Assembly: GCA_964016885.1 (NCBI GenBank)
Contig: OZ024741.1
Location: 158,906,001 to 158,970,000, forward strand
Direction of reading: 5' to 3'
DNA: 64,000 nt
DNA from: Eledone cirrhosa
Taxonomy: Eukaryota
Below the pieces are notes generated by a model, which was not told the DNA's origin, searched no databases, and saw only the letters and a program-made list of their open reading frames with translations. The position numbers and the translations under genes were made by a program. Positions 19,576-48,082 of this stretch are shown piece after piece (within the stretch, counting starts at the first letter, position 1; the number at the start of each line of letters is the position of its first letter).

Positions 19576-19652
19576 AATTGGTGTTGGATGCTTAAAGCAC
19601 CCGTATGCGGTAGGCCGTATGAGCACTCAATGCCCTCGTAGAGCAGAGTATG

Positions 19653-19951
19653 ATATCACAGAAAAAAGAGAATCAGTGTTGCGACGAAAGGAATTTATTG
19701 GACATATTACAATTGTTTCTCGGGTGACCAGCTCGAGGCATGATCGATGTGGTGATCAAACCTGACTCTGAAATCGCGCGGCCCTTGGATACATCTCGGA
19801 TCTACGAATAGGAAAATCTGCTTTGTAGAAGCGATTTCAGAGACAGGTTTGATCACCACATCGATCGTGCCTCGAGCTGGTCACCCGAGAAACAATTGTA
19901 ATATGTCCAATAAATTCCTTTCGTCGCAACACCGATTCTCTTTTTTCTGTG

Positions 19952-19955
<4 letters not shown>
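19653..19955. mobile_element. Fold-back element: 125-bp inverted arms (19653-19777 / 19831-19955), 53-bp spacer, right end abutting (TA)n; probable Penelope-like/retrozyme-type terminus
   Basis: Arms are reverse complements with 3 mismatches by eye. The right arm contains GAAA-CAATTG-TA (19889-19900), a hammerhead-type 3' half with a palindromic loop. No intact CUGANGA found. Confidence 0.7.
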
Positions 19956-19984
<29 letters not shown>

Positions 19985-20146
19985 CGCTCACATATATATA
20001 CATATATATATATGTATATGGTGATTTTTTACGAATGAAACAGTTCTAGTCTTGTAGAAGCCATTTCTATATTAAATTCTATATATACTCTATTAATTTA
20101 TTGAGTACTTCACTTACTGTGGTTTCCCCCAATTGAACCTGGGATT

Positions 20147-20183
<37 letters not shown>

Positions 20184-20354
20184 GTTGGTATTTTTGTTGT
20201 TACTCAGAGTTTTGTGATTGTCCACTAAAATGTGTCATCACTGAGCAATCTCAAAACTCCGAGTAGCAGCAGAGAGTTATCTGAATGATATAATAGATAT
20301 ATATTATGCTCAACTTTGGTATTGAGTACGTTTTCTTCATGCTTGCAAATCCAA

Positions 20355-20422
<68 letters not shown>

Positions 20423-20803
20423 ATTAAAAGAACTTGGGTCATTTCAGGCTTTAGAAGTTCTCTCCTCTGCTTATTTCAAATGATTCCCCCATCCATGTAT
20501 ATTTATGGAAGTTTTAGTCTTGACGTTTTTCCAACACACACACACACATATATGACTAAACACATATATGCTTTCTTCCTGTGAAAAAATGATTTTTCCC
20601 CCATTCTTTCTCTTCTTTCTCTATTTTTCTATTTCTTCTTCTATTTCCCAAGCAGTCCCTCTTCCATCTCTTTCATTTTATCTTCTGATAAAAGACTAAC
20701 GTCCAAAACATAAAGTCACTTTTCCTACTATAACAAGCATTAAATTAATATATATCATTATTGTCATGTATTTTTTCTCCAGTGTTGTTTTTCTGCATTA
20801 ACT

Positions 20804-20868
<65 letters not shown>

Positions 20869-21014
20869 TCTACAAAATGAACAAAACAACAAGCCACAAA
20901 TCACTGCCATTCTCTCCACCACTTTTCACTGAGAAGAACCAATAATGGAACAACCCACAATCAATAAAAATATGATTCCAAATGCAAGAACAAAGTAGTT
21001 TCCTTTGGGCAAGG

Positions 21015-21860
21015 AGATGATGATGGTGATGATAGTGGTGATGGTGATGGTGGTGATGGTGATGGTGATGGTGATGATGGTGATGATGATGGTGATGGTG
21101 ATGAGAGTGATGGTGATGATGGTGATGGTGATGATGATAGTGATGGTGATGATGATGGTGATGGTGATGGTGATGAGAGTGATGGTGATGGTGATGATGA
21201 TGGTGATGATAGTGATGGTGATGGTGATGATGATGGTGATGGTGATGATGATGATAGTGATGGTGATGGTGATGATGATGGTGATGATAGTGATGATGAT
21301 GACAGTGATGATGATGGTGATGATGATAGTGATAGCAAAATGATGATGATTGCGATATTGATAATGATAGTGATGGTGGCAATGATGATGACGATGATGA
21401 TGACAGTGATGATGATGATGACGATGTCGATGATGACAGTGATGATGATGACAGTGATGATGATGATGATGGTGATGACAGTGATGATGAAGACGATGAT
21501 GATGAAGATGTGATGATGATGATGACAGTGATGATGATGATGATGGTGATGACAGTGATGATGAAGACGATGATGATGAAGATGTGATGATGATGATGAC
21601 AGTGATGATGATGATGATGACGATGATAATCATAGTGATGGCGGTGATGACAATGATGGTGATGACGATGGTGATTATGATGATGATGACAATGATGACA
21701 TCGATGATGGCGATGATGATTATCATGATGGTGATGGTGATGATTATGTTGACGAAGACAACAATGATGATCATTGTGATAATGATGATAGTGAACGATG
21801 GTGATGATGGTGATGATGGTGATGATGGTTATGATGTTTATGATGGTTATGATGGTGATT
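21015..21860 (+). repeat. Degenerate (GAT/GGT)n trinucleotide array
   Basis: Seen directly; source of the poly-His/poly-Met ORFs. Confidence 0.95.
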
Positions 21861-21949
21861 GTTGTACATTATGAATTACACATGATTTGTTTTTATTCAG
21901 AGCATGAAGAAACAAAAGACAATACATACTGACCATCACAAAAAAGACA

Positions 21950-23372
21950 ACAGCAGAGGTGACCACAGCAGAACTGATCACAGCAGAGGTGACCACAGCA
22001 GAGGTGACCACAGCAGAGGGGATCACAATAGAAGCGACCACAGCAGAGACGACCACAGCAGAACTGACCACAACAGAGAAGACAACAACTGAGGTGACCA
22101 CAGCAGAACTGATCACAGCAGAGGGGATCACAATAGAAGCGACCACAGCAGAGACGACCACAGCAGAACTGACCACAACAGAGAAGACAACAACTGAGGT
22201 GACCACAGCAGAACTGATCACAGCAGAGAAGACAATAACAGAGGTGACCACAGCAGAACTGACCACAGCAGAGAAGACAATAACAGAGGTGACCACAGCA
22301 GAACTGACCACAGCAGAGAAGACAATAACAGAGGTGACCACAGCAGAACTGACCACAGCAGAGAAGACAATAACAGAGGTGACCACAGCAGAACTGACCA
22401 CAGCAGAGAAGACAATAACAGAGGTGACCACAGCAGAGAAGACAATAACAGAGGTGACCACAGCAGAACTGACCACAGCAGAGAAGACAATAACAGAGGT
22501 GACCACAGCAGAACTGACCACAGCAGAGAAGACAATAACAGAGGTGACCACAGCAGAGAAGACAATAACAGAGGTGACCACAGCAGAACTGACCACAGCA
22601 GAGAAGACAATAACAGAGGTGACCACAGCAGAACTGACCACAGCAGAGAAGACAATAACAGAGGTGACCACAGCAGAACTGACCACTGCAGAAGTGACAA
22701 CAGAGGTGACCACAGCAGAACTGACCACTGCAGAAGTGACAACAGAGGCGACCACCTCAGAAGTGACAACAGAGGCGACCACAGCAGAAGTGACAACAGA
22801 TGCGACCACAGCAGAGGTGACCACAAAATAACTGACCACAGCAGAGGTGATCACAACAGAATTGACTACAACAAAATTGGCCACAACAGAACTGACCACA
22901 ACAGAACTGACTACAAAGAGGTGACCACTACAAAATTGGCCACAACAGAACTGACCACAACAGAACTGACTACAAAAGAGGTGACCACTACAAAATTGGC
23001 CACAACAGAACTGACCACAACAGAATTGACTACAAAAGAGGTGACCACTACAAAATTGGCCACAACAGAACTGACCACAACAGAACTGACTACAAAAGAG
23101 GTGACCACTACAAAATTGGCCACAACAGAACTGACCACAACAGAATTGACTACAAAAGAGGTGACCACTACAAAATTGGCCACAACAGAACTGACCACAA
23201 CAGAACTGACTACAAAAGAGGTGACCACTACAAAATTGGCCACAACAGAACTGACTACAAAAGAGGTGACCACTACAAAATTGGCCACAACAGAACTGAC
23301 CACAACAGAACTGACTACAAAAGAGGTGACCACTACAAAATTGGCCACAACAGAACTGACCACAACACTGAC
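21950..23372 (+). repeat. 15-bp-unit minisatellite with two higher-order subarrays (45-bp unit, then 60-bp unit); reads as Thr-rich TTAEV/TTTEL/TTKEV pentapeptides
   Basis: 45-mer gaggtgaccacagcagaactgaccacagcagagaagacaataaca, then 60-mer gaggtgaccactacaaaattggccacaacagaactgaccacaacagaactgactacaaaa. A stop at 22829-22831 and a 1-nt deletion near 22915 break the frame. Confidence 0.95.
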
Positions 23373-23929
23373 TAAAGGGACAATATTATATCTCCCCCTA
23401 AATGTGCTTATAGGCAGCAAATTGACAGTCATTAGAATGCCTTCTAGTATTTGTTCTGGTTCCCTGCACTCTGAGATCAAATCCTGCCTTTCATAATTTC
23501 TATAATCTCTTTTTTACCTCCTTTCTATCACTCTCTCTCCTTCTACAGAAGAAATTGATTGTGATCAGACCTGGAGAGGGGATGGGCTCTACCAGATGAA
23601 AATGCCTAAGACACACTGTATGTCATATTATACATACAGTGCCATATACATACAAATATGCCTGTGCTGAAAACATTTTATATTATTCAGCTGTCCAAAT
23701 TAGAGCAAACAGAGTTATGTACCTTGCTTGGGATTGGTCGGGAGGCATTACTACAGCACTGTTTGCTGTTGAAGTAAGGTTTTGAACTTATAACCATGTT
23801 ATCAGTAATCTTGAACCAAACCAGCTCTGATTCTATGAAACAAAACCACTTATTTTAAAGGGTTTCTATTTAAATTAAAATCTTTCAACATAATTTTATA
23901 TAAGCACCATATGTTAAGTTACTGTCTTA

Positions 23930-24100
23930 ATAATTGTTTCTACTTTTGGCACAAGGCCAGTGCATTACTGGTACTTTATTTTATCGACCCCGTAAGGATG
24001 AAAGGCAAAGTTAACCTCGGCGGGATTTGAACTCAGAATGGCAAGGGCCGTAACTCTATGCTTCAAAGCATGGCGTACGATCCTCTACCGATACTGCCAA
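23930..24100 (-). mobile_element. SINE copy (same family as 18140-18320 and 50615-50810)
   Basis: Almost identical to 50615-50810 over most of its length. Confidence 0.8.
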
Positions 24101-24381
24101 TTTTAATAGTGAAATAATAATGAGTAAATCCTTCAAAATTCTTCATTAGTTAACTGAAATAGTGTGTATTTCATTAGAAATATGTTCATGAAAGGATTAA
24201 TATCATGGCCACTGACCTTAATGTCACTGTTACTGGCCTTACATTAGTCATTGACCTTAATGGCATAGCAACTGATGTTAACATTAAAGTCACTACCTTA
24301 GTGTTAGAGTCAGTGACATAAACAACAAAGTTGCTTATCTCAACATCAGAGACATTGACCTTAACATTAGAGACACTAACC

Positions 24382-24616
24382 TTAACCCCTTTAGCATTTA
24401 AATCGGCTGTATCCGGCAAGAATTCTCTCACCTTTTTCTGTTCAAACCTAGCTGTAACTGGCCACTCATACCAATGTTAAGGTATTGTTCTCAATATAAA
24501 TAACATCAAAATCTCATAGATTCGATATTATGTGAGATACTTATGTGAGGTCAAGACTTTACAGTGAAAATACAATAGTAAATATAGAGTAATGTTAATA
24601 AATGCTAAAGGGTTAA
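24382..24616. mobile_element. piggyBac-type MITE (TTAA-CCCTTTAGCATT...AATGCTAAAGGG-TTAA), inserted into a decayed ~24-bp tandem repeat
   Basis: TTAA on both sides and terminal inverted repeats. Related copies in opposite orientation at 32720-32935 and 52464-52679. The actgaccttaa repeat continues on both flanks. Confidence 0.85.
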
Positions 24617-24861
24617 TGGCATAGCTTCTGACTTTAGTGTCAGAGTCACTGAGATTAACATCAGAGCTACTGTGTCCCTAAGGGGGTGGGGAAAAATGAT
24701 AAATAAAAAAGAAGACAAAGGAATAAAAGAGAATGGTGAAAACTAAAAACAAAACAAAAATAAAATGGAAAGAAAGAAAAGAATAAGACATGAAAAGAAA
24801 GTTTGTTCCAAAATTATTTCTGACCAAGACATAATCCAAATCTGAAAACCAAAATTCTTAC

Positions 24862-24949
24862 CTTCCCTCCATAGATTCTGAGAATCTCCCCATTCTGGTC
24901 AGATCTTCTTGTGATCTACTTCCATATCGAGAATGACTCAATCGGTGAA
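24862..24949 (-). CDS. MCF2L: RhoGEF exon C-terminal to the PH domain: (V)HRLSHSRYGSRSQEDLTRMGRFSESMEG
   Basis: ctatacag| acceptor and |gtaaga donor; 88 nt, open in the phase-1 frame left by exon 28227-28149. Not in the ORF track; no conserved motif to confirm it. Confidence 0.75.
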
Positions 24950-25254
24950 CTGTATAGTGAGGAAAATATTATCAGTGCAACACTTCAACACCTCACTTCT
25001 GGCAGCCACAGTCATTTTTTTTTTCTTTCATTTAGGTGGGAGTGGAGCAGGGACTGGATTGGGGACAGGGAAGTAGATGAGGGTATTGGATGGGGGCTGC
25101 AGATATTTCCTTTCTTTCTTATCCCCTTTTCTATATATGGACTGGAAAATGCCACCAAGTTTATTGACAGTGTAAGCAGAACACTCTCCGTAGGTGCTGT
25201 ACCAAGCCTCACTGAAATTCCTGAAGGTATGTTCTATTGTAGGATGCACTCATT

Positions 25255-25830
25255 CAATAATATTGATGATGATGGTGATGATAATGTCGAAAAATGATGT
25301 TAAAATTAATTATTCCTCATAAGTCTTCAGATTTTTTTCTTCTAAGTTGAGTGCTACTACTTCATCATCAATATCATCGTCATCATTTTTATGATTGTTA
25401 TTATCATCATCACCATCATTCTCACTGTTTTTATCAGCAATGTCATCATCATTATCCCAATTTCTGTCAATGTCATCATATACATCATTGTTATCATCAT
25501 CATCACATACATCATTGTTACCATCATCATTGTCATCATCTTCGTTATCTTCATCAGTGTCATCATCATTATCATCATTATTGTCATCATCATCATTATC
25601 ATCATTATTGTCATCATCATCATTATCATCATTGAGATCATCATCGCTGTCATTATCATCAACATTGTCATCATTGTTTTCATTATCATTGTCATCACCA
25701 TTGTTATCATCACTGTTGTCATCTTCATCCTTATTGTCATCATCATCAACATTATCATTGTTATCACCATTATTGTCATCATCATCATCATCATCATTAT
25801 CACCATTGTTATCATCATCATCATTATTTG
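25255..25830 (+). repeat. Degenerate (CAT/TAT)n trinucleotide array
   Basis: Seen directly; source of the poly-Asp/Ile/Ser ORFs. Confidence 0.95.
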
Positions 25831-26809
25831 TCCCTCTCTCTCTCCTCCTCAACTTCAACCTACCCATCTGCCCCTTATATAGTCAACTCACCCTCTGGCT
25901 GTATTAGACAATCCATCTTTGATATCCTGCAGGAGTAGGATGTACCAGTAGAGTGTCCAGAAATGTTTCACCCTCCTACCCATGGCCTGTATGTTGAGGT
26001 GTTAGGGGTCAACAACATCCTGTGTCATTCTTTCAGGGAAATCCTGGGAGTCCGTTCTGTTGAATCAATAAATCCTTATGTGTTTGTGTTGAATCTGTTA
26101 TTTCTGATGATCAGTTCTCCAGTTGATTCAATCTATGGTGCTGTTTGCTTGTGAAATTAATGTGTAAGTGGCTGAGCGTTCCACAAATGTGCAACCTTAG
26201 TGAAATTCAGCGTGATACAATGTGCAACAAGCCTGGTCCCTTGAATTTCAAGTATAATGGACTGGAGCAACATGAAATAAAGAGTCTTGCTCAAGGAAAC
26301 AATGTGTCACGTGGTCTAGGAATAAAGCTCACAACCTTATGATCATAAGCTGAACACCCTAACCACTAAGCTACATGCCTTTGCACAAATCCCTATATAA
26401 TGAATCAGGTAAATAAATAGAGGATGCTTTGAGGCTAAATAGAAATAGCAGTGTACATTAGCAGGGTACATCAGCAGGATACATCAAATGGGTACATCAA
26501 AAGGGTACATAAACAGGGAAAATATAAGTGCCAGGTATAAAATAAAATTACAGTGAAATTAATATTTAAGGTGTAAAACTCTTTGGACATTGAAGATAAT
26601 ATTTTCACTTCTAGTTGATATTTGGTATTGTTTTCTATTGTTATCATGATTATTTATTACATTTACTGTTACTGTTATTCCTACTGTTTTCCTTTTGCTG
26701 ATGTCCCCTTTCCTTCACTCAATATAAACCCCAGTAAACCCCAACCTATGTTGTTTTTGTCATTGTATTATCCCCGATGCCTTGGGCTGTTGTGGCCAAT
26801 AAAAGAATC

Positions 26810-28826: not shown

Positions 28827-30373
28827 CTATAGATAAAATAGTAATAATGGTAATAATAATTGATTCTTTATTATTGCCACAAGGGCTATGTTTAAGGAGA
28901 CATTATACACACATACGCATGTACATACATACATGTATGTATGTGTCTGTGTCTGTGTGTATGTATGTTTGTATGTATCTGTGTATGTATGTCAGGTCAC
29001 CAGTTGGTGCTACTGGTAACATGTATCCCAGTACAACCTGTCTCATGGTCAGGTTGTTGGCGACTAAACTGGCAACCCCACCAAGGTTTCTTGGTGAGGA
29101 GGGTGACTCTGGACATCCTGCAGGACTAAAAACAAAACCTGTCAAAAGGCAAAGGAGCTCTTAAGAGTCAATGGCCATCCAAAATCACTGGGAGAGATGA
29201 CCCCTTAGCCTTTGTCAATGCAGAATTCTAGAAGGAAAACTCTGATATAACACCTGCAGCCCTGATGGTATCCAATGATGTTGACTTGTTCTTCTTTTTG
29301 GTAAATATCATCTTGGTTAAGAGAGTGGGACTGGCTTTGTGCAGAGCCTTTGCTCACTGTAAAAGCTTCACGGCACAGGCATTGCTTTATATCTGGAGAT
29401 CTCTCTGCACTTGTCGTCACATGGTACCATGGGCCCAGCACTATGTGTCAATAATTGTCACAAGTGTAGTGTTTGTACCAGAGTTTTTAAGTCGCTGGCT
29501 GGACTAAAAAGTCTCACTCGTTCAGCGTATCGGTAGGGGTTCTCCTACATGGATATAAAGTAGTGGCCGTACTCGAAAACGAGTTGGCAGCCACCATGTA
29601 TGTATGTATGTATGTTTTTATAGTTTTATAAATTTTTACCAATAGAGAAAGAGTCGGTTTCTAACATAGACACAAAACTCTTTCATTGGAATTTAAACAA
29701 CATCAACTAGATATGATTCCATGTCTACATGCATGCATGTGTAGATATGGATGTTATTGTATGTGTGGATGTGGATGTTTTGAATTATATGTGTGCATGT
29801 GCAAATGTTTTGTATCTGTACATGTGTACATGCAGTTATTAGATGCAGAATTTTTGGAATGTTTTACATATTTTTACTCTTCCATTAATGGATTGTACTT
29901 GTAATTTTCTAACTAGTTATGTTCTTTCTGTGAAGCCCAGTTTCAGGTAGTTACTAACATATCCCAGTGCCCCAATAATCACAGGTATAAATCTGAAAGT
30001 ATAGTCAGGGTGGAGTATCTGCAGATTCCTCATTAGTTCTGCATAGATATTCTCCTTTTCGCTAATCTATAGATAATAGCTTAAAAACTTGCGTAAATAC
30101 CCCTGGAGATGGAAAAAAGTGGCCACTAGCACTTATGTATGTATGAATGAATGCATGTGAAATATCAAAGAAAAAACAGCACAGGAGAACAATTTAGTAC
30201 AATGATAATATATATTAGTTTAAAACTTGATATAGTTGGGAAAGAAGTCTTAATAATAACAATAAAAATAACAACAACCAACGTCAAAGAGGGGAGATAA
30301 TACATATGTATCGTAATTGCAATGTATGAGTGTGTATGTGTGTGTGGCGAAGGTTGCTAGACAGAATACTCAC

Positions 30374-30577
30374 CTTTAGCATGTTCTTGAAAATATATAC
30401 AGCATTTGAAGAACTTTGGTTATCATCCTTCCTTTTACACAGAAGCACTGCCTTTTCATATAGGAATATGTGTCGTGCCATTGGTTTGAACCGGAAATCT
30501 CGAATTTTGTTCTTATGTTCCGTCCAGACCTGGAAACTACCCTGCATCAGTAGTTTACCAAGGTCTCCAATATTTCC
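30374..30577 (-). CDS. MCF2L: RhoGEF exon, PH domain start: GNIGDLGKLLMQGSFQVWTEHKNKIRDFRFKPMARHIFLYEKAVLLCKRKDDNQSSSNAVYIFKNMLK
   Basis: ttgattcag| and |gtgagt; 204 nt, phase 0-0. GDLGKLLMQGSF.VWT and RFKPM.RH.FL.EKAVL are DBS/MCF2-type motifs. Confidence 0.97.
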
Positions 30578-36840: not shown

Positions 36841-37517
36841 AGATATATATATAGTCAAGGGTTGTGAAAAATCACTGAGGATGAGATGTTGATGTTCAAT
36901 ATTTCATTTATAATAATTATTAGTAATTCTAACATGTGTCTCGATGCAATATAATATCTTGGGCCCATAAAATCTGAATTGTTACACAATCGGTTACTTC
37001 ATACTGCCAGGGAATATCGTAATCACATCACTTCAGAGAAAATATAATTAGGAATATATGTGTGAGTAAGAGAATAGGTATCTATACAAATTGACAAATC
37101 AAGGTTTTAGGATTGATAGAATGGCAGTACATTTATACTTCACACACACGCAATGGTTTAGGAAGACCCTTTAGTTGTGTCAAGGACATGATAACCTTCC
37201 TAGTGTTGGTAATCTACACGATAAAAGCACCCAGTAAATGCTGTAAAGTGGTAGCCATTTGAAGGGCAACAAGCTTGCCAAATAAAGAGTTGGGAGGACC
37301 TTCCAGTTGTGTGGGAGATATAGCAACTTCTCTGGAGCTGATGCCACAATTAGATGCACTTGTTGGAATGCAGAACCATATGTAAGCGAGAAGAGGCATA
37401 CCTCCTACCTGTCTGGGAGGTCAGTCTCCCCGCTTCAGTACAGACTTAATCTGTGAAGATCCATCCAATTCTTGCTAGCAGGGAAAGTGGACAATAAATT
37501 ATGATTAAATTATGATA

Positions 37518-38978
37518 TACAAGCCATGTATAAAGAAACAGTCAGCAAGGTTAGAATTAACAACGAATATAGTGAAGAATTTAGTATAAAAGTAGGTGTT
37601 CATCAAGACTCTGTCCTTAGCCCTCTCCTATTTATTATTGCCCTTCAGGCTATAACAGAGGAGTTTAAGACCGGCTGCCCAATGATCTAACTCTCATAGC
37701 TGAATCTATGGCTGAACTAAAGAAAAAATTCCAAACATGGCAGCATGGCCTAGAATCAAAAGGCCTTAACTTGTTCTAGTATGTAGAAAGAAAAATAGGG
37801 CACAGGTGCCCTCTGGGAAATGGCCATGCTGAGTGTGTAGGAAAGGAATAGGTAAAAATTTCATTTTATGTCCCAAATGCAAACTATGGGTACATAAAAG
37901 ATGTAGTGGGATCACAGGTAAGCTATCTCAGAACGTAGATTTTATATATGGCCGATGCTCAGGTGCAATAAGTAGCAAGTGCCCACAGGATACTAGCTCC
38001 TTCTATTGCCCAGATGGTTCTATAGAAATAGTGGACACTTGCCATTACATGACTGACAAAATCAGCAGTGGTGGAGGGTGCTCTGAAAGTACAGTAGCCA
38101 GAGTCAGAACGGGATGGAAAAAGTTCAGAGAGCTTATACCGCTGTTGGCCACAAGAGGTTTCTCTGTAAAAATGAAAGGCAGATTGTATGATGCAGTGAG
38201 ACATGGGCATTGTGTGCAGAGGACCTGCGCAGACTGGAAAGGAACGAAGCATGCATGCTCTGCTGGATGTGTAATAGTAATATACGTGAACGGCAAAACA
38301 TAAATGAACTAAGTGAGAAATTAGGAATAAGAGGGATCAGATGCTGTTTACTTGAGAGAAGACTACGTTGGTATGGTCACGTGATGCGCATGAAAGATGA
38401 GAGTTGTATAAAAAGTGCAGGGCGATCAAAATTGATGGAAGTTATGGAGTAGGTAGACCCAGAAAAACCTGGGACGATTTGATAAATTCCGACCTTACAC
38501 ACTTGCACCTCTCTAAGACAATGTCACTGGACCGAGATCTTTGGCACTACGCAGTAATACAGAAGACCCGCCTTGCCTATGTACAAAGCAAAACCTACAG
38601 TCAGTAGGCACCTCTTAACCAAAAATACACCCCAACCCACTGCCCCTACTCCATCCTCCCAGTCCCACCAACACCACCCTTTCTCTGTAAAGTTATGTTG
38701 GTACTGCAACATCCAGTCCAAACTAATGAGGTCGTGTAGGTGTCATGACAAAAAAAACACACAGTCCACGCTGTAATGTGGCCGTGTAGGTAACATGGTA
38801 AAAAGCTCCCAGTCCACACTGTAAATGTGGTTGGTGTTAGGAAGGGCATCCAGCCGTAGAAAACCTGCCAGACAGTCCTATACGAGCGAGATGACCAATC
38901 TTGCTTCAAGTGGGACAATTCCCGTCTAACCCATGCTAGCGTGGAAGATAGACGTTAAATGATGATGATGATGATGAT
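37518..38978 (+). mobile_element. 5'-truncated RTE-type LINE (RT C-terminal part, PHD-like Cys/His insert, RRLRWYGHV, GRPRKTW), frameshifted
   Basis: VGVHQ.SVLSPLLF, CRKGIGKNFILCPKCKLWVHKRCSGI and RRLRWYGHVMRM translations; (GAT)n tail. Confidence 0.92.
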
Positions 38979-39480
38979 ATTCACACACACACAAATATAT
39001 ATGTCTGTGGTTAATGGTGTTCACCTCATGATCTTAAGATCTTGAGTTTGATTCCTGCTGGCATGTTGTGTCCTTGGGCAAGACATTTCATTTTATGCTG
39101 CTCCAGTCCATTCTGCTGGAAAGAATGAGTTGTACCTGAAATTCAAAATGCCAGCAATATCAGAATCTGTGTCCTGCTGAATCTCCCTGAGAATTATATA
39201 AATGGTGCACATATCCGAGGAATGCTCAGCCACTTGCATATTAATTTAATGAGCTAGCTGATCCATTGTTCAAACAACTGAAACATTCATCATAACCTAC
39301 AGAGTTCCATCCATAACAGACACATGTATATCTATATATATATCATTATCATCTTGTTACATCTACTTCCCATGCTGGTATGGGTCGGATGCTTTTCCTA
39401 ATACTAATCACATGATAGAATGTGCTGAGTGCATTTTTTGTGGCCACCAGTACTATCACTTTACAGAATGAACTGGTCTT

Positions 39481-40130
39481 TATGCTCCGATGGATGTGTA
39501 ATAGTAATATACGTGAACGGCAAAGCATAAACAAATTGAGAGAGAGACTGAGCATAAGAGGAATCAAATGCTGTGTGCAGGAGAGGAGGTTACGTTGGTT
39601 TGGACATGTGATGCGTATGAAGGATGACAGCTGCATAAAAAGGTGCAAAACACTAGAAGTCGATGGAAGCCGCAAAGTGGGGAGACCCAAAAAGATCTGG
39701 GATGAGGTAAAAAAAGCCGACCTTACCCAAATACACCTCTCAAAGGCGATGACACATGACCATGACCTCTGGTGTCACGCAGTAATACAGAAGACCCGAC
39801 CCCTTATGAGTACAAGCCGAAGCTGAAAGATATAGACAATATGCCCCTACCCCCTCCCACTGCAAAGTGGTCGTGGAGGTGTCACGGCAAAAAAATGACC
39901 CAGCCCACACTGTAAAGTGGACGTGTAGGCGCCATGGAAAAAAGCACCCAGCACTCACTGTAAATGTGGTTGGTGTTAGGAAGGGCATCCAGCTGTAGAA
40001 ATCAAACCAGAATCAGTTCCCGTATGAGCAAAAGATGATCAGCCGACTGGCTACTGCCCACAACAGGACAACCCGTCTAACCCATGCTAAAGAGGAAGAA
40101 CGGACGTAAAACGGTGATGATGATGATGAT
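39481..40130 (+). mobile_element. RTE-type LINE 3' fragment (subfamily B)
   Basis: MLRWMC..RRLRWFGHVMRM..GRPKKIW; (GAT)n tail. Confidence 0.9.
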
Positions 40131-40199
40131 TATGTTTATAACCAGTCTGCTCTGTCCTATATCATCTTCCTGAGGTTCAGTTTCTTGAGTTCAATCATC

Positions 40200-40650: not shown

Positions 40651-40708
40651 AAGCATAAGCACCAAATTAAAGAAGTTGAAATGTTAAAAAGTAGAAATGC
40701 CAACTTAC

Positions 40709-40824: not shown

Positions 40825-42447
40825 CTGGAAGAAAAAGAAAATAAATATAAAAAGATCCAAAAAGGAATGAAACGAATTAGAAAAGATGAAACTAAAAGTA
40901 AAAGAAAAAAATTGGAAAATCAAAACGATTCTAGCATTTTATATGCAGAAAGTATGGGAGAAAACTCTCATACTTATTGGGGGATCATCAGTGGAGGGAT
41001 AACTACTGTCGTAACTACCAAATTATTGGTGATCTCGGAGCTGTTGAATTTCAAGTTGTCTCTGATCAAACAGAGTAATGCAGTAATACTACATTCAAGA
41101 CGTTAGACATCCTGTCTTTTTTCTCAGGAAAATACCCCCTATATTGTCTAATATTGTACCACATACTATATTGTCTAATATACACACTACTAAAAAATTC
41201 AAGACAATTTTGAAATTAGGCATGCTATTCAGGAAGCCAAACAGGCTGCATGCAGCTTGCAGACCTCAGTTTTCCCATAACTGCTGTAGAGGATCCTTCG
41301 CTAGCTTAAAGGTTTGATAATGAATCACTAAATAAATATATACAGAAATTTATCTAAAATCTTGGCACATTACAGAGGTGATTTGTCATTGCTTTCCCCT
41401 GATTTTCCATCTACCCACCAGGAGTATTTGACTTTGGTCCAGTCAATGGGCTTCTACAAAGTTTCCATCTACTTTGTTTTGTTCAAGAAATGTTGGCCAA
41501 CCGGAGGTAAATATAGGGGTCTGTTCAGTGGAATTGAACCCAACAAATTTCTCAACCATACACTGAGGTGGTCTTAAAACTAACCCAGATATCCTTTATC
41601 TATCAGGTTGGCCAACCCCTGCTTCATTAACTATTAACATTCTGTAATGATTTAGCAGAAAATATCTAAAGACAGAATCGATAATTCAAATGTTTATAGT
41701 GTCTTTACTAGAGAAAAGATTGTTGTGAAAATTTGCAGTGAAATAAAAACAAAAGAGTCTAATTTTCAATGTTATGCAGTCATGGTGATGTTTTGTACTT
41801 TTCAAGAAAGTTTGACTGATGTGGTTTTATGTGGTACAGAATGTTAAGAATTAATACGCTTTTCAGCTGTTTTCTTTTTTATTATCTCAGCTTCACAACC
41901 TACTTAGCATTGCTCAAATATCCATATGGCCAGTCTCTCTATGACCACATGGCCAAATCTGCATCAATATATCTAGCACATTTTTTCTTAAAATGTGACG
42001 AAACATTGGGGTAATGATGATAAAACATTGATGCCATATACAAAATGTGAGAGTGATATTAAAATAGAGTTTGGAATGGAATGATCCTAAATTGGTTTCA
42101 ATGATGAGTGGTCCAGTTGTTTGATTAATGGAATAGCCTGCTCATTAAATAAAAGTGTAAGTGGCTGAGTATTCCATAGGCATGCATACCTTTAATGTAA
42201 TTCCCAAACTGAAGCAGTGTGACAGAGTATGTGACAAGATTTGTCCTTTGAATTAGAGGTACAATCCATCCAACATGATTCCAAACAGTTTTCATCTACC
42301 CAATATCACTCACAAGGCATAGGTCGACCTAAGGATATGGTAAATGATGCTAAAAATGCCATGCAGTGAGACTGAACTCTGCACCTACTGATTGCAAAGT
42401 GAACTTCTTAACTATTCAGGCATGCTGCAAAGATAGAGTTTACTTAC

Positions 42448-42514
42448 CCACAATATATCATATAACTCAGTAACATAGGTTTTCTCTGTTTCAACCAATT
42501 CCCTGTAGACATGC
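42448..42514 (-). CDS. MCF2L: RhoGEF exon, DH conserved region 1: HVYRELVETEKTYVTELYDILW
   Basis: tgcttcag| and |gtaagt; 67 nt, phase 2 to 0; EL..TE..YV..L motif. Confidence 0.97.
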
Positions 42515-42612
42515 CTGAAGCATAGAATATATATTGAATACAGTATAGTTATGTAGACATATCTGATATATATATATGTTGAATTATACATACATACACA
42601 CACACACACACA

Positions 42613-42646
<34 letters not shown>

Positions 42647-42654
42647 CATATATA

Positions 42655-42754
42655 CAGGATATTCCAAAAATGTATACACACTTCAACAGCATTCTAATAA
42701 ATATTACCTGTAAATGTAATCAAAGTGTGTATAGATTTTTGGGGGGACACCCTG
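42655..42754. mobile_element. 100-bp Tc1/mariner-type MITE, TA target
   Basis: ta-CAGGATATTCCAAAAATGTATACACACTT...AAGTGTGTATAGATTTTTGGGGGGACACCCTG-ta imperfect terminal inverted repeats. Confidence 0.8.
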
Positions 42755-42778
42755 TATATATGTTATATGTATGATATA

Positions 42779-42994
42779 CAAGTGGGTGCTGAAAGGTTCT
42801 AGGCTGATCACTGCTACAGAGGCCTGGTTGGAGACCCAACCTTCTGAGTTCATTTTATAGGGCTTTTTAAAACTGAAAGACCTTTGCAATAAGTGTGTAA
42901 ATCAGAGAGGGGAATATGTTGAATAAAATCATGATTAACTGATCCTCCTGTATTTTCATTTACCCAAAGCCAGGAACTTTTCAGCACACCCTTG
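42779..42994. mobile_element. mariner-type MITE, TA target
   Basis: ta-CAAGTGGGTGCTGAAAAGGTTCTAGGCT...AGCCAGGAACTTTTCAGCACACCCTTG-ta imperfect terminal inverted repeats. Confidence 0.8.
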
Positions 42995-43006
42995 TATATG
43001 TTTATG

Positions 43007-43062
<56 letters not shown>

Positions 43063-43249
43063 ATACTTGGGGAGGGTCATATTTGTATAATATTGCCAGA
43101 ATTAATAACAGAACACACTCACTGTTTGGTTGGTTTTCGCTTCTGTGTCTTTTATATCGGTAATCTAATTTATTCAGTCCTCAATGTTGCCATTGACTGA
43201 CCAACGGTCAAAAATAATACAGATTCAATATAGACACACACACATATAT

Positions 43250-43303
43250 ATAGTTTATCAAAGTTCTTTCGTTGCACATCTGCAACATCGTCAGTGGTGC
43301 TAT
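43250..43303 (-). ncRNA. Degenerate minimal type I hammerhead ribozyme motif (sense to the GEF pre-mRNA)
   Basis: atagcacca-CTGACGA-T-gttgca(gatg)tgcaac-GAAA-gaac-TT-tgataaactat. Perfect 6-bp stem II; stem I has one mismatch and an internal loop. Confidence 0.55.
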
Positions 43304-43780
43304 TGTTTCCTCCCGTTACATTGTATGTCTACGCCATCTTTATTTAGTCTGTTTATTTTATTTTGCCTTCTTTGCGCATGCGTTTGCGTGTGTGTATAGT
43401 GTTTTGTTTGATGTGTGTTCGTGATTGAGTGAAATAGAACTTAGAAGGCCAAGACTAAACAGAAAGAATGAATGGAATAACAACAACACCCAAACAAAGA
43501 GAAGTATAAATAAATAAATAAATAGATAAATAAATAAATAAATACATACACAAGCACAATAACAACAAACACATATAAACACACACTAGTAAAGATAGAA
43601 TACATTAACCGATACACAGTCACCCAATCACGAACACACATCAAACAAAACACTATACACACACGCAAACGCATGCGCAAAGAAGACAAAATAAAATAAA
43701 CAAACAAATAAATAAATAAATAAATATATAAACAGACTAAATAAAGATGGCGTAGACATACAATGTAATGGGAGGAAACA

Positions 43781-43834
43781 ATAGCACCACTGACGATGTT
43801 GCAGATGTGCAATGAAAGAACTTTGATAAACTAT
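43781..43834 (+). ncRNA. Mirror copy of the degenerate hammerhead motif
   Basis: CTGACGA at 43790-43796, GAAA at 43814-43817; the closing C of stem II is changed to T (G:U pair). Confidence 0.5.
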
Positions 43835-44299
43835 ATATATGTGTTTGTGTTTATATTGTATCTGTATTATTTTTGACCGTTGGTCAGTCAATGGCAACAT
43901 TGAGGACCGAATAAATTAGATTACCGATATAAAAGACACAGAAGCGAAAAGCGAAAACCAACCAAACAGTGAGTGTGTTCTGTTATTAATTCTGGCAATA
44001 TTACACAAATATGACCTCCCCAAGTATAACAATATTTGTTTCGACACACGATTTCATATAAAAAACCTCGCAAAACTATATATAAATATATATATATAAA
44101 GAAAAGCTTCTACAGGACTAGAACTGTTTCATTCATGAGAAATCATATATATATAAATATATATATATATGCAAAAGTTCTATTTAAATTGTTGGGATAC
44201 AACAACAAATATTTTTATAACTGATATAAAGCACTCAACAAATAATTGGAGTAAAAATACGATATTGACAAATGGAAACTATATTTATAAAACCATATT

Positions 44300-44364
44300 T
44301 ATTTCATTATACATATTTCAAGGACACCAAGTTAAATTATGGTGTGCTTTCATCAGATAAAATA
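44300..44364 (-). ncRNA. Minimal type I hammerhead ribozyme (sense to the GEF pre-mRNA)
   Basis: Exact reverse complement of 45074-45138. Confidence 0.75.
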
Positions 44365-45073
44365 TAATATAGAGCAGTTTTATAAATAAATATTGACATA
44401 CCCTTAAAGAATGCAACCATTACTGTTGGAAGCTCCCGGATAGTGGAGTTATATTTATACTTATAGTATTAGGTAAGTTAGTATTGGATATTTTAAAATA
44501 AGCCGTTGGGTTACGGAGAAAGAGAAAGAGAGAGAGCAGAATAAAAGAGAGAAAAAAGAGAGAGAAAAGAGAGAGAGAGAGAGAGAGCATAACAACAGAG
44601 AGAGAATAGAAATAGAAAAAATAGAAATAGAAAACGTATTGATCTCAATATTATAACTGATTAACTAAACATCTAATCATATTTAAACAATGGTTAAATT
44701 TCTCATATTATATATGTATATTCCATTCATGATTATTAACATTTCTAATTTTATTTATTCATTTCATCTCAAATGTTAAGATAAATCAACAAGATATGAC
44801 TTGGAGTTTTTACTCTCTCTCTCTCTCTTTTTCCTATTTCTATTTATTTTCTCTCTCTGTTGTTATGCTCTCTCTCTCTCACTTTTCTCTCTGTTATTCT
44901 GCTCTCTCTCTTTCTCTTTCTCCGTAACCCAATGGCTTATTTTAAAATATCCAATACTAACTTACCTAATACTATAAGTATAAATATAACTTCACTATCT
45001 GGGAGCTTCCAACAGTAATGGTTGCATTCTTTAAGGGTATGTCAATATTTATTTATAAAACTGCTCTATATTA

Positions 45074-45138
45074 TATTTTATCTGATGAAAGCACACCATA
45101 ATTTAACTTGGTGTCCTTGAAATATGTATAATGAAATA
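45074..45138 (+). ncRNA. Minimal type I hammerhead ribozyme
   Basis: Stem I TATTTTAT (45074-81) / ATGAAATA (45131-38), 8 bp with one G:U. Core CTGATGA 45082-88. Stem II AAGCACACCA / TGGTGTCCTT, 9 of 10 paired. GAAA 45119-22, then TATGTA-TA, with predicted cleavage after A45130 (AUA triplet). Confidence 0.75.
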
Positions 45139-45178
45139 AATATGGTTTTATAAATATAGTTTCCATTTGTCAATATCG

Positions 45179-45211
<33 letters not shown>

Positions 45212-45244
45212 AGAGAGAGAGAATGAGGGGGGGGGGGGAATATG

Positions 45245-45285
<41 letters not shown>

Positions 45286-45599
45286 GTGTGTGTATGTGTA
45301 TCCAGTTCAGAATAGGTACACTCGATCCTTGCATATTATAACAAGCAACTAACTGGGTTGGTGCTAGGAAGGGCGGAAGGGCATCCAACTGTAACATATT
45401 GCCTCTCATAAGGCTTGCAATCCTAACCTCTGCTTTAGCAAGGGAAATGGTTTTAAAATGCTTGATAGTTCTCTTTATATATACAAAGAGTTGGTATATT
45501 GATTGCTGATACTATCTGTCTGTCACAATTGCTGGCAGGAGGAGGAATGAGAAATGAAGGATTTTACTCTAGAACTCAATGTACCAGAAAGTCCAGAAA

Positions 45600-46735
45600 T
45601 CAAATTCATGATCTCAGTCAAAGACAGGTAGTCACTGTTTAGGACAGCATTCTTCCTTCACCCTATGAGATATCATCTGGTGTACTGCAGAGATCTGTTC
45701 TTGGCCCCCTTTTGTTTGTTGCATATATTAATGACATAGATGCCAACTTAAAGAATGCCACAGTACTGAAATATGCAGATGACATCAAGCTGTACCTTGA
45801 GATAAAAAAGACAGATCCTGAACACTATAGATCTTTCCTGCAATCTGACCCGGACACAATGCAACAATGGATCATGGACTGGCAACTCAAGCTGGCTGTG
45901 GACAAGTGTACCTCCATGTATTTTGGGAGGAAAAACCCAGCGTCCACTTACTCCCTCCACAACACTGATATCAAGGAGTCTTCTTGTGAATGTGACCTGG
46001 ACATTACTGTCAGCAGCAATTTACGTTCGACGAAGCACATCTCTAAAATTGTCAAGAAGGCCGAGGGTGTCTTAGCATTACTCAGCAAGACCTTTGTCAG
46101 CCGCTCTCCAGCTATCTATTTAAAGCTGTATGTAGCTATGGTGTGGCCACACTTAGAATTTGCATTCCCAGACTGGAACCCCTATCCTGCTCAGACCTCC
46201 TGGAAACTGTTCAGAAACGTGCAACCAAGCGAATACCCTCCATCAGACATCTACCATACTCTGAACGCCCTGCTTCCCTGGACATGGATACATTGAAGCT
46301 CCGACGTCTGGCAACTGACTTGGTAAACACCCACAAAATTGTTAACCATCTTACCAACAACAACCCTGAGTACCTTTTTGATTTCCATGTGTCTAACACA
46401 TGTGGACATGCCTACAAAGTCAGAAAACGGCACAGTTCCCATGACTTTCGGAAACATTTTTTCATGCTCAGAATTGCTGAAGCATGGAACAAACTACCTG
46501 CATCAGTTGTTAGCTGTCGAGACACTGCATCCTTTAAAACCTCCATGCTTCCTGAGATTCGCCAACACTGCACCTAATATTCCCCCTCCATACACATGCA
46601 CACATTTATATCATGACTCATACACTATTCACTTCCCTGACATTTGTATATTATTCTATGTACTATACATGCACCTTTGATGAGTTGTAGTGCACCTGAG
46701 CACTGTACACAATAATTTCATTATTATTATTATTA
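45600..46735 (+). mobile_element. 5'-truncated CR1/L2-type LINE (RT domain to 3' UTR, (TTA)n tail), frameshifted
   Basis: SGVLQRSVLGPLLFVAYIND, YADDIKL, W...WQLKLAVDKC, PHLEFA..WNP, LETVQKRATK, FF..RIAEAWNKLPASVV. Confidence 0.92.
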
Positions 46736-47083
46736 ATCAGCAGTGCAATACTCATTACAATTAGGTTACACACAAAAACATATTACTTCTGTCATTTTAT
46801 TGGGTGCAGAAGTTCATAATTTTCTGACAAAAATAACTAATTTTAGAGAATATCCTGGGTATATTGCGATACCAGCACCACTACTTTACAGACTTGAAGA
46901 GGTATATTCTATGAACTAAATTTTCAACAGTTTTTTTTTTGGTGAAGGTGCAGGTGCACCTCCACACACACACACACACACGTATATATATGTATATATA
47001 TATATATATATAGTGTGTGGGTAATACAGTGAATTACTGGTGTTGGTACCAAATCAAGCACTCTATGCACAGGCAGAGTAGTG

Positions 47084-47242
47084 TATAAAATAGAAAAAAA
47101 TTAGGAAGTTTCGTTTACATATAAAGAAGGAAATATACTGGAGTCGGGTCCATAACTCCTATGGGTTACCTTGAGTCAATCCTCTGCGAAATGCGCGTAA
47201 CAGGTCGACACACAATGTAAATGAAACTTCCTCGCTTTTTTC

Positions 47243-47250
<8 letters not shown>
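47084..47250. mobile_element. Small fold-back element with ~36-bp inverted arms, right end abutting (TA)n
   Basis: aatagaaaaaaattaggaagtttcgtttacat / atgtaaatgaaacttcctcgcttttttctatt. Internal GAAA-TGCGCG-TA (47188-47199) resembles a hammerhead 3' half. Confidence 0.6.
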
Positions 47251-47283
<33 letters not shown>

Positions 47284-47669
47284 GCAGGTGGGTACAAATA
47301 AAAACAATAGCAATCGACATATAACATGAAAGTTGAGAGTATTTATATTAGTAGTTTGACTTAACTCTGCTTTATCAGCAGTTTCAAGATGAAAACATAT
47401 TTATAACATCAGATACATATGTGAAATGTAAAGTGCATGCACACATATATTCACATGCTTGCTTATTAAATTTCATGCATTTGAGAATCCACAAAGTTCA
47501 AGGCCAATGGATTCTCTTTCTAATTAAGCCAGAATAAAAGAAGATTTCACAATTGAGCAGACACAGAGAAACAGAGACAAGACAGAACATGAAGAGAAAC
47601 ACTGAGGTGAAGTGAGAAATGAAGTTATGAAAAAATTAGTGATTGAGGTGATGGCAGATATAGCTTGAA

Positions 47670-47715
<46 letters not shown>

Positions 47716-47844
47716 CGAAGGAAATGTGGCAAGGAACCAGATGGACCATAATGCACCAGAAATAGCCGTCAGAACGGCTTGAGCTCTGCCGTCGGGGTCA
47801 TACCTTTTCCTATATATATGTGTATATATATATATATATATGTG

Positions 47845-47878
<34 letters not shown>

Positions 47879-47978
47879 TACACACATACACACATATATT
47901 AATAAGAATGTTAACGAAAAGTGGATGGGAAAATAACCACGTGTTAGTAGAAAATAAGCATATTTATTAAATATAGAT

Positions 47979-48056
47979 ATGACTTCTACATAACTAGAAC
48001 TGTTTCATTTGTATGATTTCATACGAATGAAACAGTTCTATTTCTGTAGAAGTCAT
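47979..48056. repeat. Near-perfect hairpin of a motif also present singly at 20023-20070 (+) and 44107-44145 (-)
   Basis: atgacttctacataactagaactgtttcatttgtatga-tt-tcatacgaatgaaacagttctatttctgtagaagtcat. Confidence 0.85.
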
Positions 48057-48082
48057 TTCGTATATTATATTATATATAGATT

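What the first reader, a model, noticed from the sequence alone, without database searches (positions are those of the whole stretch)
19578..48070. Recurring architecture: five unrelated (TA)n-associated fold-back elements share outward hammerhead polarity
Seen: palindromes at 19653-19955, 43055-44035, 44258-45180, 47084-47250 and 47979-48056 have no sequence similarity to each other. Four have one arm ending directly on a (TA)n run, while the other arm continues as an unpaired extension. Each contains GAAA-(short, usually near-palindromic loop)-UH (CAATTG-TA, GAAC-TT, TATGTA-TA, TGCGCG-TA, CAGTTCTAG-TC) read away from the centre or toward the TA-abutting arm. Known: Penelope-like elements often insert as a 5'-truncated copy plus an inverted pLTR with a short tail. 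Inference: these are ORF-less ribozyme-bearing retroelement termini from several families that target (TA)n. They would be a systematic source of long intronic dsRNA. No Penelope RT/GIY-YIG ORF is visible in this window.
Basis: partly seen in the sequence, partly recalled or inferred. Interest (0 to 1): 0.8.

Follow-up and report, generated by a model that had tools for sequence, protein, structure and literature searches.

The report
Penelope transposon stumps with hairpin signal
These fold-back sequences in an octopus gene are stumps of a known kind of jumping gene (Penelope-like elements), but several carry a small RNA hairpin that comes in two copies in intact relatives and sits right behind the two places where the elements end, so it may be the signal that tells the element's enzyme where to start copying.

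Summary
All five palindromes are real. Four (E1-E4) lie inside (TA)n: one arm ends on TA, the other runs on as a 41-86 nt tail that also ends at TA. Only E2 and E3 hold a complete hammerhead (both arms, outward); E1, E4 and E5 have just its 3' half. They are not all unrelated. The tails of E1, E3, E4 and of a solo E5 sibling start with the same bulged hairpin, RCTC-hairpin-TH-GAGYRCT. In metagenome loci with Hydra-clade Penelope-like ORFs this hairpin covaries and is doubled in 15 of 20 intact leaders, 55-71 nt apart. In 8 of 9 loci the element's own 3' end falls 2-6 nt before one copy. Reads show E2 and E3 are abundant families; E3 is 5'-truncated; E2's tail looks like an ORF start. Verdict: 5'-truncated Penelope-like insertions with inverted pLTR and tail. 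That architecture is published, and this scan noted it before in a shark genome. The paired hairpin, as a signal for the two reverse-transcription start sites that would explain the tail, was not found in my literature searches; its function is inferred. No ORF link, RNA or cleavage is shown for these copies.

The parts
19578..19652 (-). E1 tail (75 nt, unpaired extension), ends on (TA)n at 19577
19622..19649 (-). E1 tail hairpin (ACTC-hairpin-TT-GAGTGCT), starts 3 nt beyond the arm end, 58 nt after GAAA-CAATTG-TA
   Evidence: covariance model score only 3.8 bits
19653..19777 (-). E1 left arm (tailed copy); hammerhead 3' half only, no CUGANGA core
19778..19830 (.). E1 unpaired centre (53 nt)
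19831..19955 (+). E1 right arm (tailless copy), ends on (TA)n
20022..20150 (+). Solo copy of the E5 family: hammerhead 3' half, hairpin motif at 20087-20109, tail running to a (CA)/(TA) repeat at about 20150
   Evidence: (top covariance-model hit, E=0.006)
43009..43058 (.). (TA)25 target run abutting the E2 left arm
43055..43432 (-). E2 left arm (tailless copy) with complete type I hammerhead, core starting at 43294
43433..43619 (.). E2 unpaired centre (187 nt)
43620..44035 (+). E2 right arm (tailed copy) with complete hammerhead, core starting at 43790
44036..44076 (+). E2 tail (41 nt), apparently the start of a protein-coding frame; no hairpin motif
44077..44170 (-). TA-rich stretch holding a second, very short solo copy of the E5 family
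44171..44256 (-). E3 tail (86 nt), ends on (TA)n at 44170
44230..44252 (-). E3 tail hairpin motif, 55 nt after the hammerhead cut site
   Evidence: (E=0.044)
44257..44631 (-). E3 left arm (tailed copy) with complete hammerhead, core starting at 44356
44632..44825 (.). E3 unpaired centre (194 nt)
44826..45181 (+). E3 right arm (tailless copy) with complete hammerhead, core starting at 45082; ends on (TA)n
47013..47083 (-). E4 tail (71 nt) with hairpin motif at 47057-47079; ends on (TA)n at 47012
   Evidence: (6.8 bits)
47084..47120 (-). E4 left arm (37 nt, tailed copy)
47121..47214 (+). E4 centre with hammerhead 3' half GAAA-TGCGCG-TA, about 50 nt from the TA-abutting end; no core
47215..47250 (+). 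E4 right arm (tailless), ends on (TA)n
47960..48077 (.). E5: head-to-head pair of short E5-family copies joined inside the hammerhead; not on a long TA run; no recognisable tail
42448..42519 (-). Host DBS/MCF2L-like exon closing the intron that holds E2-E5
49823..49948 (-). Host DBS/MCF2L-like exon opening the intron that holds E2-E5

Best explanation
The five palindromes are short, 5'-truncated insertions of Penelope-like retroelements (PLEs) in an octopod genome, from at least two lineages. E1, E3, E4 and the E5 family look like Hydra-clade ends. E2 belongs to another PLE type whose tail runs into the ORF start. SHOWN: head-to-head arms with 3' ends outward; E1-E4 bounded by TA at both ends; one tailless and one tailed arm; complete hammerheads in E2 and E3; abundant families for E2 and E3; a bulged hairpin at the tail start that is doubled in Hydra-type leaders, with 3' ends 2-6 nt upstream of either copy. 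INFERRED mechanism: an element-encoded RT/GIY-YIG protein nicks both strands of a (TA)n run, which reads the same either way. It binds the RNA at a hairpin and starts cDNA just 5' of it, probably helped by a short UAU/AUA that pairs with the TA primer. Starting at the first hairpin gives the tailless arm; starting at the second gives the tailed arm, so tail length equals the hairpin spacing. Both cDNAs stop early and join head to head, giving the palindrome in one event from one template. As a by-product the host pre-mRNA gains long hairpins, and any hammerhead is made after its antisense arm and so is probably masked. The confidence given is for the PLE-stump identity; the hairpin-as-start-signal step I put at about 0.5.
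For: Anatomy. Hammerheads in E2, E3; 13,824 contigs of run X1 and 404,419 of 12,467,656 reads of run X21 lay on 43433-44825; E3 summed depth falls from 3.0 million at 44279-44325 to 3,853 at 44467-44513 (5' decay), the tail is covered (574,212), and 43 contigs leave the reference at 44257 into (TA)n, the tailless end. Both E3 arms carry G at 44267/45171, where 12,420 of 12,593 X21 reads have A: one template. Tail motif: 4 places in the window versus a null mean of 0.05, max 1 in 300 shuffles; a model built only from metagenome copies ranks the E5 sibling (not seen before) and the E3 tail first and second. In the metagenome loci: 52 hits on the RT strand, 2 opposite, null 0-2; pair 15-31 is C-G in 30 and U-A in 16 of 46 rows, never unpaired; two copies in 15 of 20 leaders; 8 of 9 same-locus 3' ends at -2 to -6; TAT/ATA at -9..-1 in 35 of 51 versus 17, 7, 9 of 51 further upstream. 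Published Hydra consensi show the same motif (Hydra-2_Amil, Hydra-2_Ajap, twice at the 5' start of Hydra-1_Ajap, read by eye) and list (TA)n as target. Architecture in print; internal initiation at two sites and cleavage of both strands shown for another PLE.
Against: No RT/GIY-YIG ORF is linked to any of these five families. E1, E4, E5 lack the hammerhead core that Craig et al. call universal in the Hydra clade. E1 and E4 motifs score only 3.8 and 6.8 bits, not significant. A sequence-only profile of hammerhead half plus spacer plus motif found none of the window elements above noise. The degenerate positions of the descriptor were chosen after seeing E1, E3, E4, so its null overstates significance. 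Window copies are all ACTC/GAGT, while 51 of 52 metagenome copies are GCTC/GAGC. The motif is weak or absent at the expected place in Hydra-1_Obim, the one octopus Hydra consensus seen, and in 3 of 20 leaders. E1, E4 and E5 were not tested for copy number by reads. E5 is not on a long TA run and shows no tail. Tails of 71-86 nt are longer than the 30-40 bp in print and than the 55-71 nt spacing in the metagenome set. [quoted passage not shown]
Confidence: 0.82

Rival explanations
1. Solo PLE ends inserted first, and the palindromes arose later by host fold-back repair at fragile (TA)n runs, not during retrotransposition.
For: Both arms share a rare variant, which later local duplication would also give; solo copies exist.
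Against: The tailless arm stops at the family's own 3' end (43 contigs end at 44257) and 3-4 nt before the hairpin in E1, E3 and E4; host repair has no reason to respect that point. Inverted 5' copies are a general PLE property.
Confidence: 0.08
2. The elements are PLE stumps, but the paired hairpin works otherwise: as a single-stranded-DNA or cruciform signal for the endonuclease that resolves the intermediate, or as a translation, splicing or promoter element near the start codon, with the ends close to it only by proximity.
For: The second copy lies shortly before the ATG. Craig et al. attribute the tail to endonuclease-mediated resolution. Covariation shows single-strand pairing, not which polymer.
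Against: Ends keep a 2-6 nt register to either copy and a TA-like trinucleotide is enriched exactly there; RT start sites define the tail in the anole PLE.
Confidence: 0.35
3. Non-autonomous DNA transposons (MITEs) with long terminal inverted repeats inserted at TA.
For: Long near-perfect inverted repeats flanked by TA.
Against: Ends are asymmetric: the extension belongs to the family (covered); depth decays toward the centre instead of staying level; hammerheads; motif shared with PLE leaders.
Confidence: 0.03
4. Non-LTR retrozymes (tandem hammerhead repeats that give circular RNAs).
For: ORF-less and hammerhead-bearing; retrozymes are proposed to derive from PLE pLTRs.
Against: No tandem units of these elements in the window; copies are inverted and 5'-truncated.
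Confidence: 0.04
5. Assembly artefact from fold-back reads.
For: Palindromes next to simple repeats are prone to misassembly (own knowledge).
Against: Arms differ by substitutions and indels, and several right-arm differences in E2 depart from the family majority that the left arm keeps.
Confidence: 0.02

Closest known systems
Hydra-clade Penelope-like elements (Craig et al. 2021, PMC8557442), e.g. Penelope-13_HM, Hydra-2_Ajap, Hydra-1_Obim
   Same: (TA)n target; type I hammerhead near the 3' end with palindromic stem III; 5'-truncated inverted copy at the 5' end (Penelope-13_HM); same bulged hairpin about 40-55 nt after the cut site, visible in their published consensi.
   Different: No ORF here; A-U instead of G-C closing pair; tails of 71-86 nt; E1, E4, E5 lack the core; the hairpin and its doubling are not mentioned in the passages of that paper that I saw.
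Adineta vaga Pen2a_Av / D. virilis Penelope inverted pLTR plus tail (Arkhipova et al. 2013, PMC3846280)
   Same: Head-to-head inverted pLTRs with an optional tail on one of them; there pLTR plus tail cover the first 22 codons of the ORF, as E2's arm plus 41-nt tail appear to cover about 22 codons.
   Different: Those copies have measurable target-site duplications and an ORF; E2's ORF and clade could not be identified.
PAc (Poseidon, Anolis carolinensis) internal initiation (Frangieh et al. 2024, PMC11167929)
   Same: Two internal RT start sites whose interval is the tail; both strands cut and extended; AT-rich target; predicted dimer.
   Different: There the starts lie in one AC-rich stem-loop 111-118 nt inside the ORF; here a separate conserved hairpin follows each of two ends in the untranslated leader.
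PLE minimal hammerheads (Cervera and de la Pena 2014, PMC4209133)
   Same: Type I motifs in pLTRs with palindromic helix III; pairs about 100-700 bp apart on opposite strands were already noted.
   Different: E2 and E3 have canonical-type helix III lengths; three elements have only half a motif.
Naiad elements (Craig et al. 2021)
   Same: (TA)n target, inverted copies, tails, no canonical hammerhead, present in Octopus.
   Different: Supplement search for the hairpin's 3' half found it paired with its 5' half mainly in Hydra consensi (read by eye; A-U variant not searched).

Membership tests
Penelope-like elements (EN+) | Linked ORF with telomerase-like RT and GIY-YIG endonuclease | tested here: inconclusive
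   None in the window, as expected for truncated stumps; no genome held to extend the families; E2 tail shows five synonymous differences in another organism but no protein match.
Penelope-like elements (EN+) | 5'-truncated inverted copy joined head to head | tested here: met
   Arms point outward in all five; E3 depth decays 5'-ward.
Penelope-like elements (EN+) | Tail on one end only | tested here: met
   E1 75, E2 41, E3 86, E4 71 nt; E2 and E3 tails are family sequence. Not recognisable in E5.
Penelope-like elements (EN+) | Hammerhead in the pLTR (E2, E3) | tested here: met
   4 descriptor hits versus null mean 0.52.
Penelope-like elements (EN+) | Dispersed multi-copy family | tested here: met
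   E2 and E3; E5 has 3 loci in the window. E1 and E4 not tested.
Penelope-like elements (EN+) | Target-site duplication | not testable with these tools
   Hidden in (TA)n, as Craig et al. note.
Hydra clade | (TA)n target | tested here: met
   E1, E3, E4 both ends; E5 itself not on a long run.
Hydra clade | Canonical hammerhead (E3) | tested here: met
Hydra clade | Canonical hammerhead (E1, E4, E5) | tested here: not met
   No core even with swapped 3-8 pairs. These three are described as working like Hydra-clade ends, not filed as members.
Hydra clade | Placement of the RT in the Hydra clade | not testable with these tools
   No linked RT for these families.
Hydra clade | Leader hairpin (feature defined here, not in print) | tested here: met
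   E3 and E5 sibling significant by covariance model; E1 and E4 in register but weak; absent from E2.
Non-LTR retrozymes | Tandem repeats each with a type I hammerhead | tested here: not met
   No tandem units in the window; genome-wide not testable.
MITE / TIR DNA transposon | Inverted repeats define both ends, uniform length | tested here: not met
   One end extends by family sequence; 5' decay of depth (E2 and E3 only).
Naiad | N-terminal GIY-YIG ORF; no canonical hammerhead | tested here: inconclusive
   No ORF; E1 and E4 lack a core, but their tail motif matches Hydra consensi.

The most novel reading that the evidence does not exclude
Hydra-clade Penelope-like elements carry two copies of a conserved bulged RNA hairpin in their leader. 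Each is a landing pad for the telomerase-like RT, which starts cDNA 2-6 nt upstream on a UA-rich patch paired to nicked (TA)n. Two enzyme units on one RNA, one per hairpin and one per target strand, would make the tailless and tailed arms of the head-to-head palindrome in a single event, explaining tail length and the one-sided tail.
Probability: 0.4. Interest if true: 0.72.

Novelty: new variant of a known kind. Interest (0 to 1): 0.5.

Why it matters
What may matter is the paired hairpin. How PLEs, the closest mobile relatives of telomerase, pick their internal start sites and produce tails and inverted copies is called an open question in the papers read. A 20-30 nt structure with covariation, present twice and in register with both 3' ends across marine metagenome loci, published coral and sea-cucumber consensi and this octopod, gives a direct test (move or delete the hairpin and map cDNA starts) and a marker for classifying ORF-less PLE fragments. 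Such insertions also add long intronic hairpins in a cephalopod, a group known for extensive A-to-I editing (own knowledge; not tested).

Tried and rejected
No whole genome is held, so genome-wide enrichment, orientation and ORF-extension tests were not possible. Rfam: nothing at gathering level; only chance miRNA-type hairpin hits at E<=10 in 42700-48500. Pfam did not recognise the two metagenome PLE ORFs and PDB sequence search gave nothing significant; their Hydra assignment rests on comparison by eye with the supplement alignments and on relatives with PF26215 and one with GIY-YIG. E2 tail peptide: no homologue; 4 hits among representatives were unrelated repeat proteins; two of its 5-residue words are absent from the Craig supplement. 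Variant hammerhead cores for E1, E4, E5: rejected; their isolated folds are no better than shuffles. A tail for E5: alignment to the sibling's tail is at chance level (101 of 300 shuffles as high). Sequence-only profile of hammerhead half to motif: no window element above noise. Palindromic junction hairpins of 6 bp or more in the centres: none in E1, E2, E4. No RNA holder listed for 43059-48070. Earlier scan notes by sequence or place gave nothing relevant. Frangieh supplement text held no match to four terms; its figures, including the predicted RNA fold, were not visible, and bioRxiv supplements were closed, so a similar structure could be drawn there.


Full report
Setting. The window comes from an octopod: a PH-domain exon at 30359-30577 (-) is 96% identical to the guanine nucleotide exchange factor DBS of Octopus sinensis and O. 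bimaculoides. tblastn of that protein maps exons on the minus strand from 49948 down to 24834. E2-E5 lie in one intron between exons at 49823-49948 and 42448-42519, and E1 lies downstream of the last mapped exon, with about 190 residues of the protein still unplaced, so it is probably intronic too. No whole genome is held. I call the five palindromes E1-E5 in coordinate order.

Observation. All five inverted repeats exist: E1 125-nt arms at 98%; E2 368 of 377 aligned columns identical; E3 347 of 355; E4 32 of 37; E5 40 of 45. In E1-E4 one arm ends 0-1 nt from a (TA)>=5 run, against 1.1% of positions (506 of 46,615) lying within 5 nt of one. The other arm continues as an unpaired tail (75, 41, 86 and 71 nt) that also ends at TA, so each unit sits inside a microsatellite. 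E5 and four other palindromes of the window are not next to such runs. A type I hammerhead descriptor finds 4 hits outside the satellite, in both arms of E2 and of E3, all pointing outward (25 shuffles, mean 0.52). E1, E4 and E5 have GAAA-loop-UH but no core; the best candidates have two or more mismatches, and a relaxed descriptor (9 hits, null mean 4.0) adds none in them. Rfam finds no hammerhead. So the hammerhead claim holds for 2 of 5. The elements are also not all unrelated: E5 has two solo siblings in the window, and E1 and E4 align above all 60 shuffles.

Other copies. One call laid four runs on 43433-44825, which holds one arm, the centre and the tail of E2 and of E3. 13,824 contigs of run X1 (which may be the window's own sample) and 404,419 of 12,467,656 reads of run X21 were laid. 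Three repeat stretches were skipped, including most of the E2 centre and the E5 sibling. Summed depth is not copy number, but both families are clearly abundant. E3 depth falls from 3.0 million (44279-44325) to 3,853 (44467-44513), the pattern of 5' truncation. Its tail is well covered, and 43 contigs leave the reference at 44257 into (TA)n, so the tailless end recurs elsewhere. Both E3 arms have G at 44267 and its mirror 45171, where 12,420 of 12,593 X21 reads have A (insertions are also reported at 44266-44267, so the alignment there is not clean). That points to one template for both arms. In E2 the family majority restores the helix II pair that the right arm has lost (323,829 of 336,717 reads at 43813). 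Contigs of another organism (X8) up to 1298 nt long match E2 only over 44008-44063; the consensus loose end after 44056 (26 contigs) differs from the window at five third-codon positions, all synonymous in the frame printed (my reading). E2's tail therefore looks like an ORF start, as in A. vaga Pen2a, where pLTR plus tail cover 22 codons. Protein searches did not identify that ORF. Only 15 of 62 joints were shown, 2 of them strand switches, so junction variability is not established.

The tail hairpin. By eye, the tails of E1, E3 and E4 begin 3-4 nt past the arm end with ACTC-hairpin-TW-GAGTGCT; that pattern has exactly 3 hits in 64 kb. The Hydra-clade consensi in the supplement of Craig et al. 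2021 show a G-C version after the hammerhead in Hydra-2_Amil and Hydra-2_Ajap, a partial one in Hydra-1_Crog, and two copies at the 5' start of Hydra-1_Ajap; Hydra-1_Obim shows none clearly (read by eye). Two ORFs examined are 705 and 712 aa and match the Hydra alignments by eye. Pfam and PDB do not recognise them, but relatives carry PF26215 and one a GIY-YIG domain. Of 14 distinct downstream hammerheads, 2 had under 45 nt of sequence after them; 8 of the other 12 have the motif 41-53 nt after the cut site, and of the 4 without it 3 run into repeats or flank before that point. In the window the distance is 58, 55 and 35 nt. A pairing-aware descriptor gives 52 hits on the RT strand and 2 opposite (null 0-2). 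In an alignment of 46 of the 62 hits (dropped: 5 of the 6 opposite-strand hits, hits inside ORFs or at odd positions, and near-duplicates), the first inner pair, which was not part of the pattern, is C-G in 30 rows and U-A in 16, never unpaired; 0 of 500 shuffles reached the covariation score, though related sequences can inflate this. A covariance model from those rows alone ranks 20077-20119 (+) first (E=0.006), a place I had not noticed, which is the tail of the solo E5 sibling, and the E3 tail second (E=0.044). E1 and E4 align in register but score only 3.8 and 6.8 bits. The descriptor finds the 4 places against a null mean of 0.05, but its degeneracy was chosen after seeing three of them. 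A sequence-only profile from hammerhead half to motif found none of them above noise.

Two hairpins, two ends. Of 20 distinct loci with an intact 5' region, 15 have two copies 55-71 nt apart, 2 have one and 3 none. End mapping gave 19 rows. In the 9 that compare a leader with the 3' end of the same locus, 8 end 2-6 nt before a hairpin; the ninth (L010) ends at -21 under strict scoring and -3 under default scoring. Two end before the first copy (tailless) and seven before the second (tailed). Of the 10 cross-locus rows, one ends at -4, three at -20 to -54 and six inside the ORF start, where copies of 88-99% identity diverge or are interrupted. TAT or ATA lies at -9..-1 in 35 of 51 hairpins, against 17, 7 and 9 of 51 in three windows further upstream.

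How it most likely works. Shown: the anatomy, the two complete hammerheads, the abundance of E2 and E3, the hairpin, its doubling and its register with the ends. Inferred: a PLE protein nicks both strands of (TA)n, binds the RNA at a hairpin and starts cDNA just 5' of it on a UA patch. The first hairpin gives the tailless arm, the second the tailed arm, and the two truncated cDNAs join head to head. Frangieh et al. showed for an anole PLE that both strands are cut and extended, that RT starts internally at two sites, and that the tail is the interval between them. Because the hammerheads point outward, transcription of either strand makes the antisense arm first, so the ribozyme is probably masked in the host pre-mRNA; the whole elements fold to -659 (E2), -597 (E3) and -253 (E1) kcal/mol. 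Expression and editing are untested.

Comparison with what is known. Inverted 5'-truncated copies, one-sided tails of 30-40 bp and (TA)n targeting are described for PLEs (Craig 2021, passages; supplement parts 2, 52, 53 and searches). Head-to-head is the common arrangement (Arkhipova 2013, passages). Opposite-strand hammerhead pairs 100-700 bp apart were noted in 2014 (Cervera and de la Pena, parts 1-2 of 4). Of Frangieh 2024 I read parts 1-2 of 4 and searched the supplement text; of the 2026 retrozyme preprint, part 1 of 5. Other papers were seen only as search listings. I file E2 and E3 as PLE stumps, E3 probably Hydra clade. E1, E4 and E5 work like Hydra-clade ends but fail the canonical-hammerhead test and are not filed as members.

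Novelty and verdict. The recurring architecture is known. The paired hairpin and its register with both ends did not appear in searches, nor in the passages read. The library holds open-licence PubMed Central papers and bioRxiv only; Repbase and Dfam notes and all figures were out of reach, so prior description is not excluded. Novelty: new variant of a known kind. Interest 0.5: low for the finding as stated, raised by a small, testable candidate signal for how Penelope-like elements choose their start sites.

Noticed in passing
window 1-16123: About 498 copies of a 33-bp satellite.
   Followed up: no
window 55158-55382: A 79% palindrome of a different dispersed repeat (relatives near 18453, 50190, 63470), bounded by (AAT)n-type runs at both ends; may be a similar head-to-head insertion into another microsatellite.
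   Followed up: no
window 45643-46720: Frameshifted LINE fragment with an RVT_1 domain ending in a short (ATT)n, between E3 and E4.
   Followed up: partly
window 37517-40140 and 56292-57820: Two LINE fragments (RTE-like by eye) in opposite orientation 16-19 kb apart, 70-90% alike: another possible source of long-range intronic dsRNA.
   Followed up: no
window 58592-59092: Reading frame resembling a Tc1/mariner transposase fragment by eye; no Pfam hit.
   Followed up: no
window 21908-23385: 15/60-bp tandem array with long open frames that read as a Thr-rich mucin-like repeat on the strand opposite to the host gene; probably a satellite.
   Followed up: no
window 24834-49948 (-): Eleven tblastn segments of a DBS/MCF2L-like Rho GEF; the PH exon is 96% identical to Octopus sinensis and O. 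bimaculoides proteins.
   Followed up: yes
L008:2874-2936 and L008:2937-3067: Two different Hydra-type elements meet tail to tail in one TA run; the + strand element has a hammerhead with the 3-8 core pair swapped to G-C (read by eye).
   Followed up: partly
L057:1626-1723 (-): Closely resembles the 3' end of the published Hydra-1_Amil consensus and continues into the hairpin, which places that consensus end about 4 nt before the first hairpin (by eye).
   Followed up: partly
window 42646-42763: Short 70% palindrome with TA-rich ends, unrelated to the five; possibly a small DNA-transposon relic.
   Followed up: no
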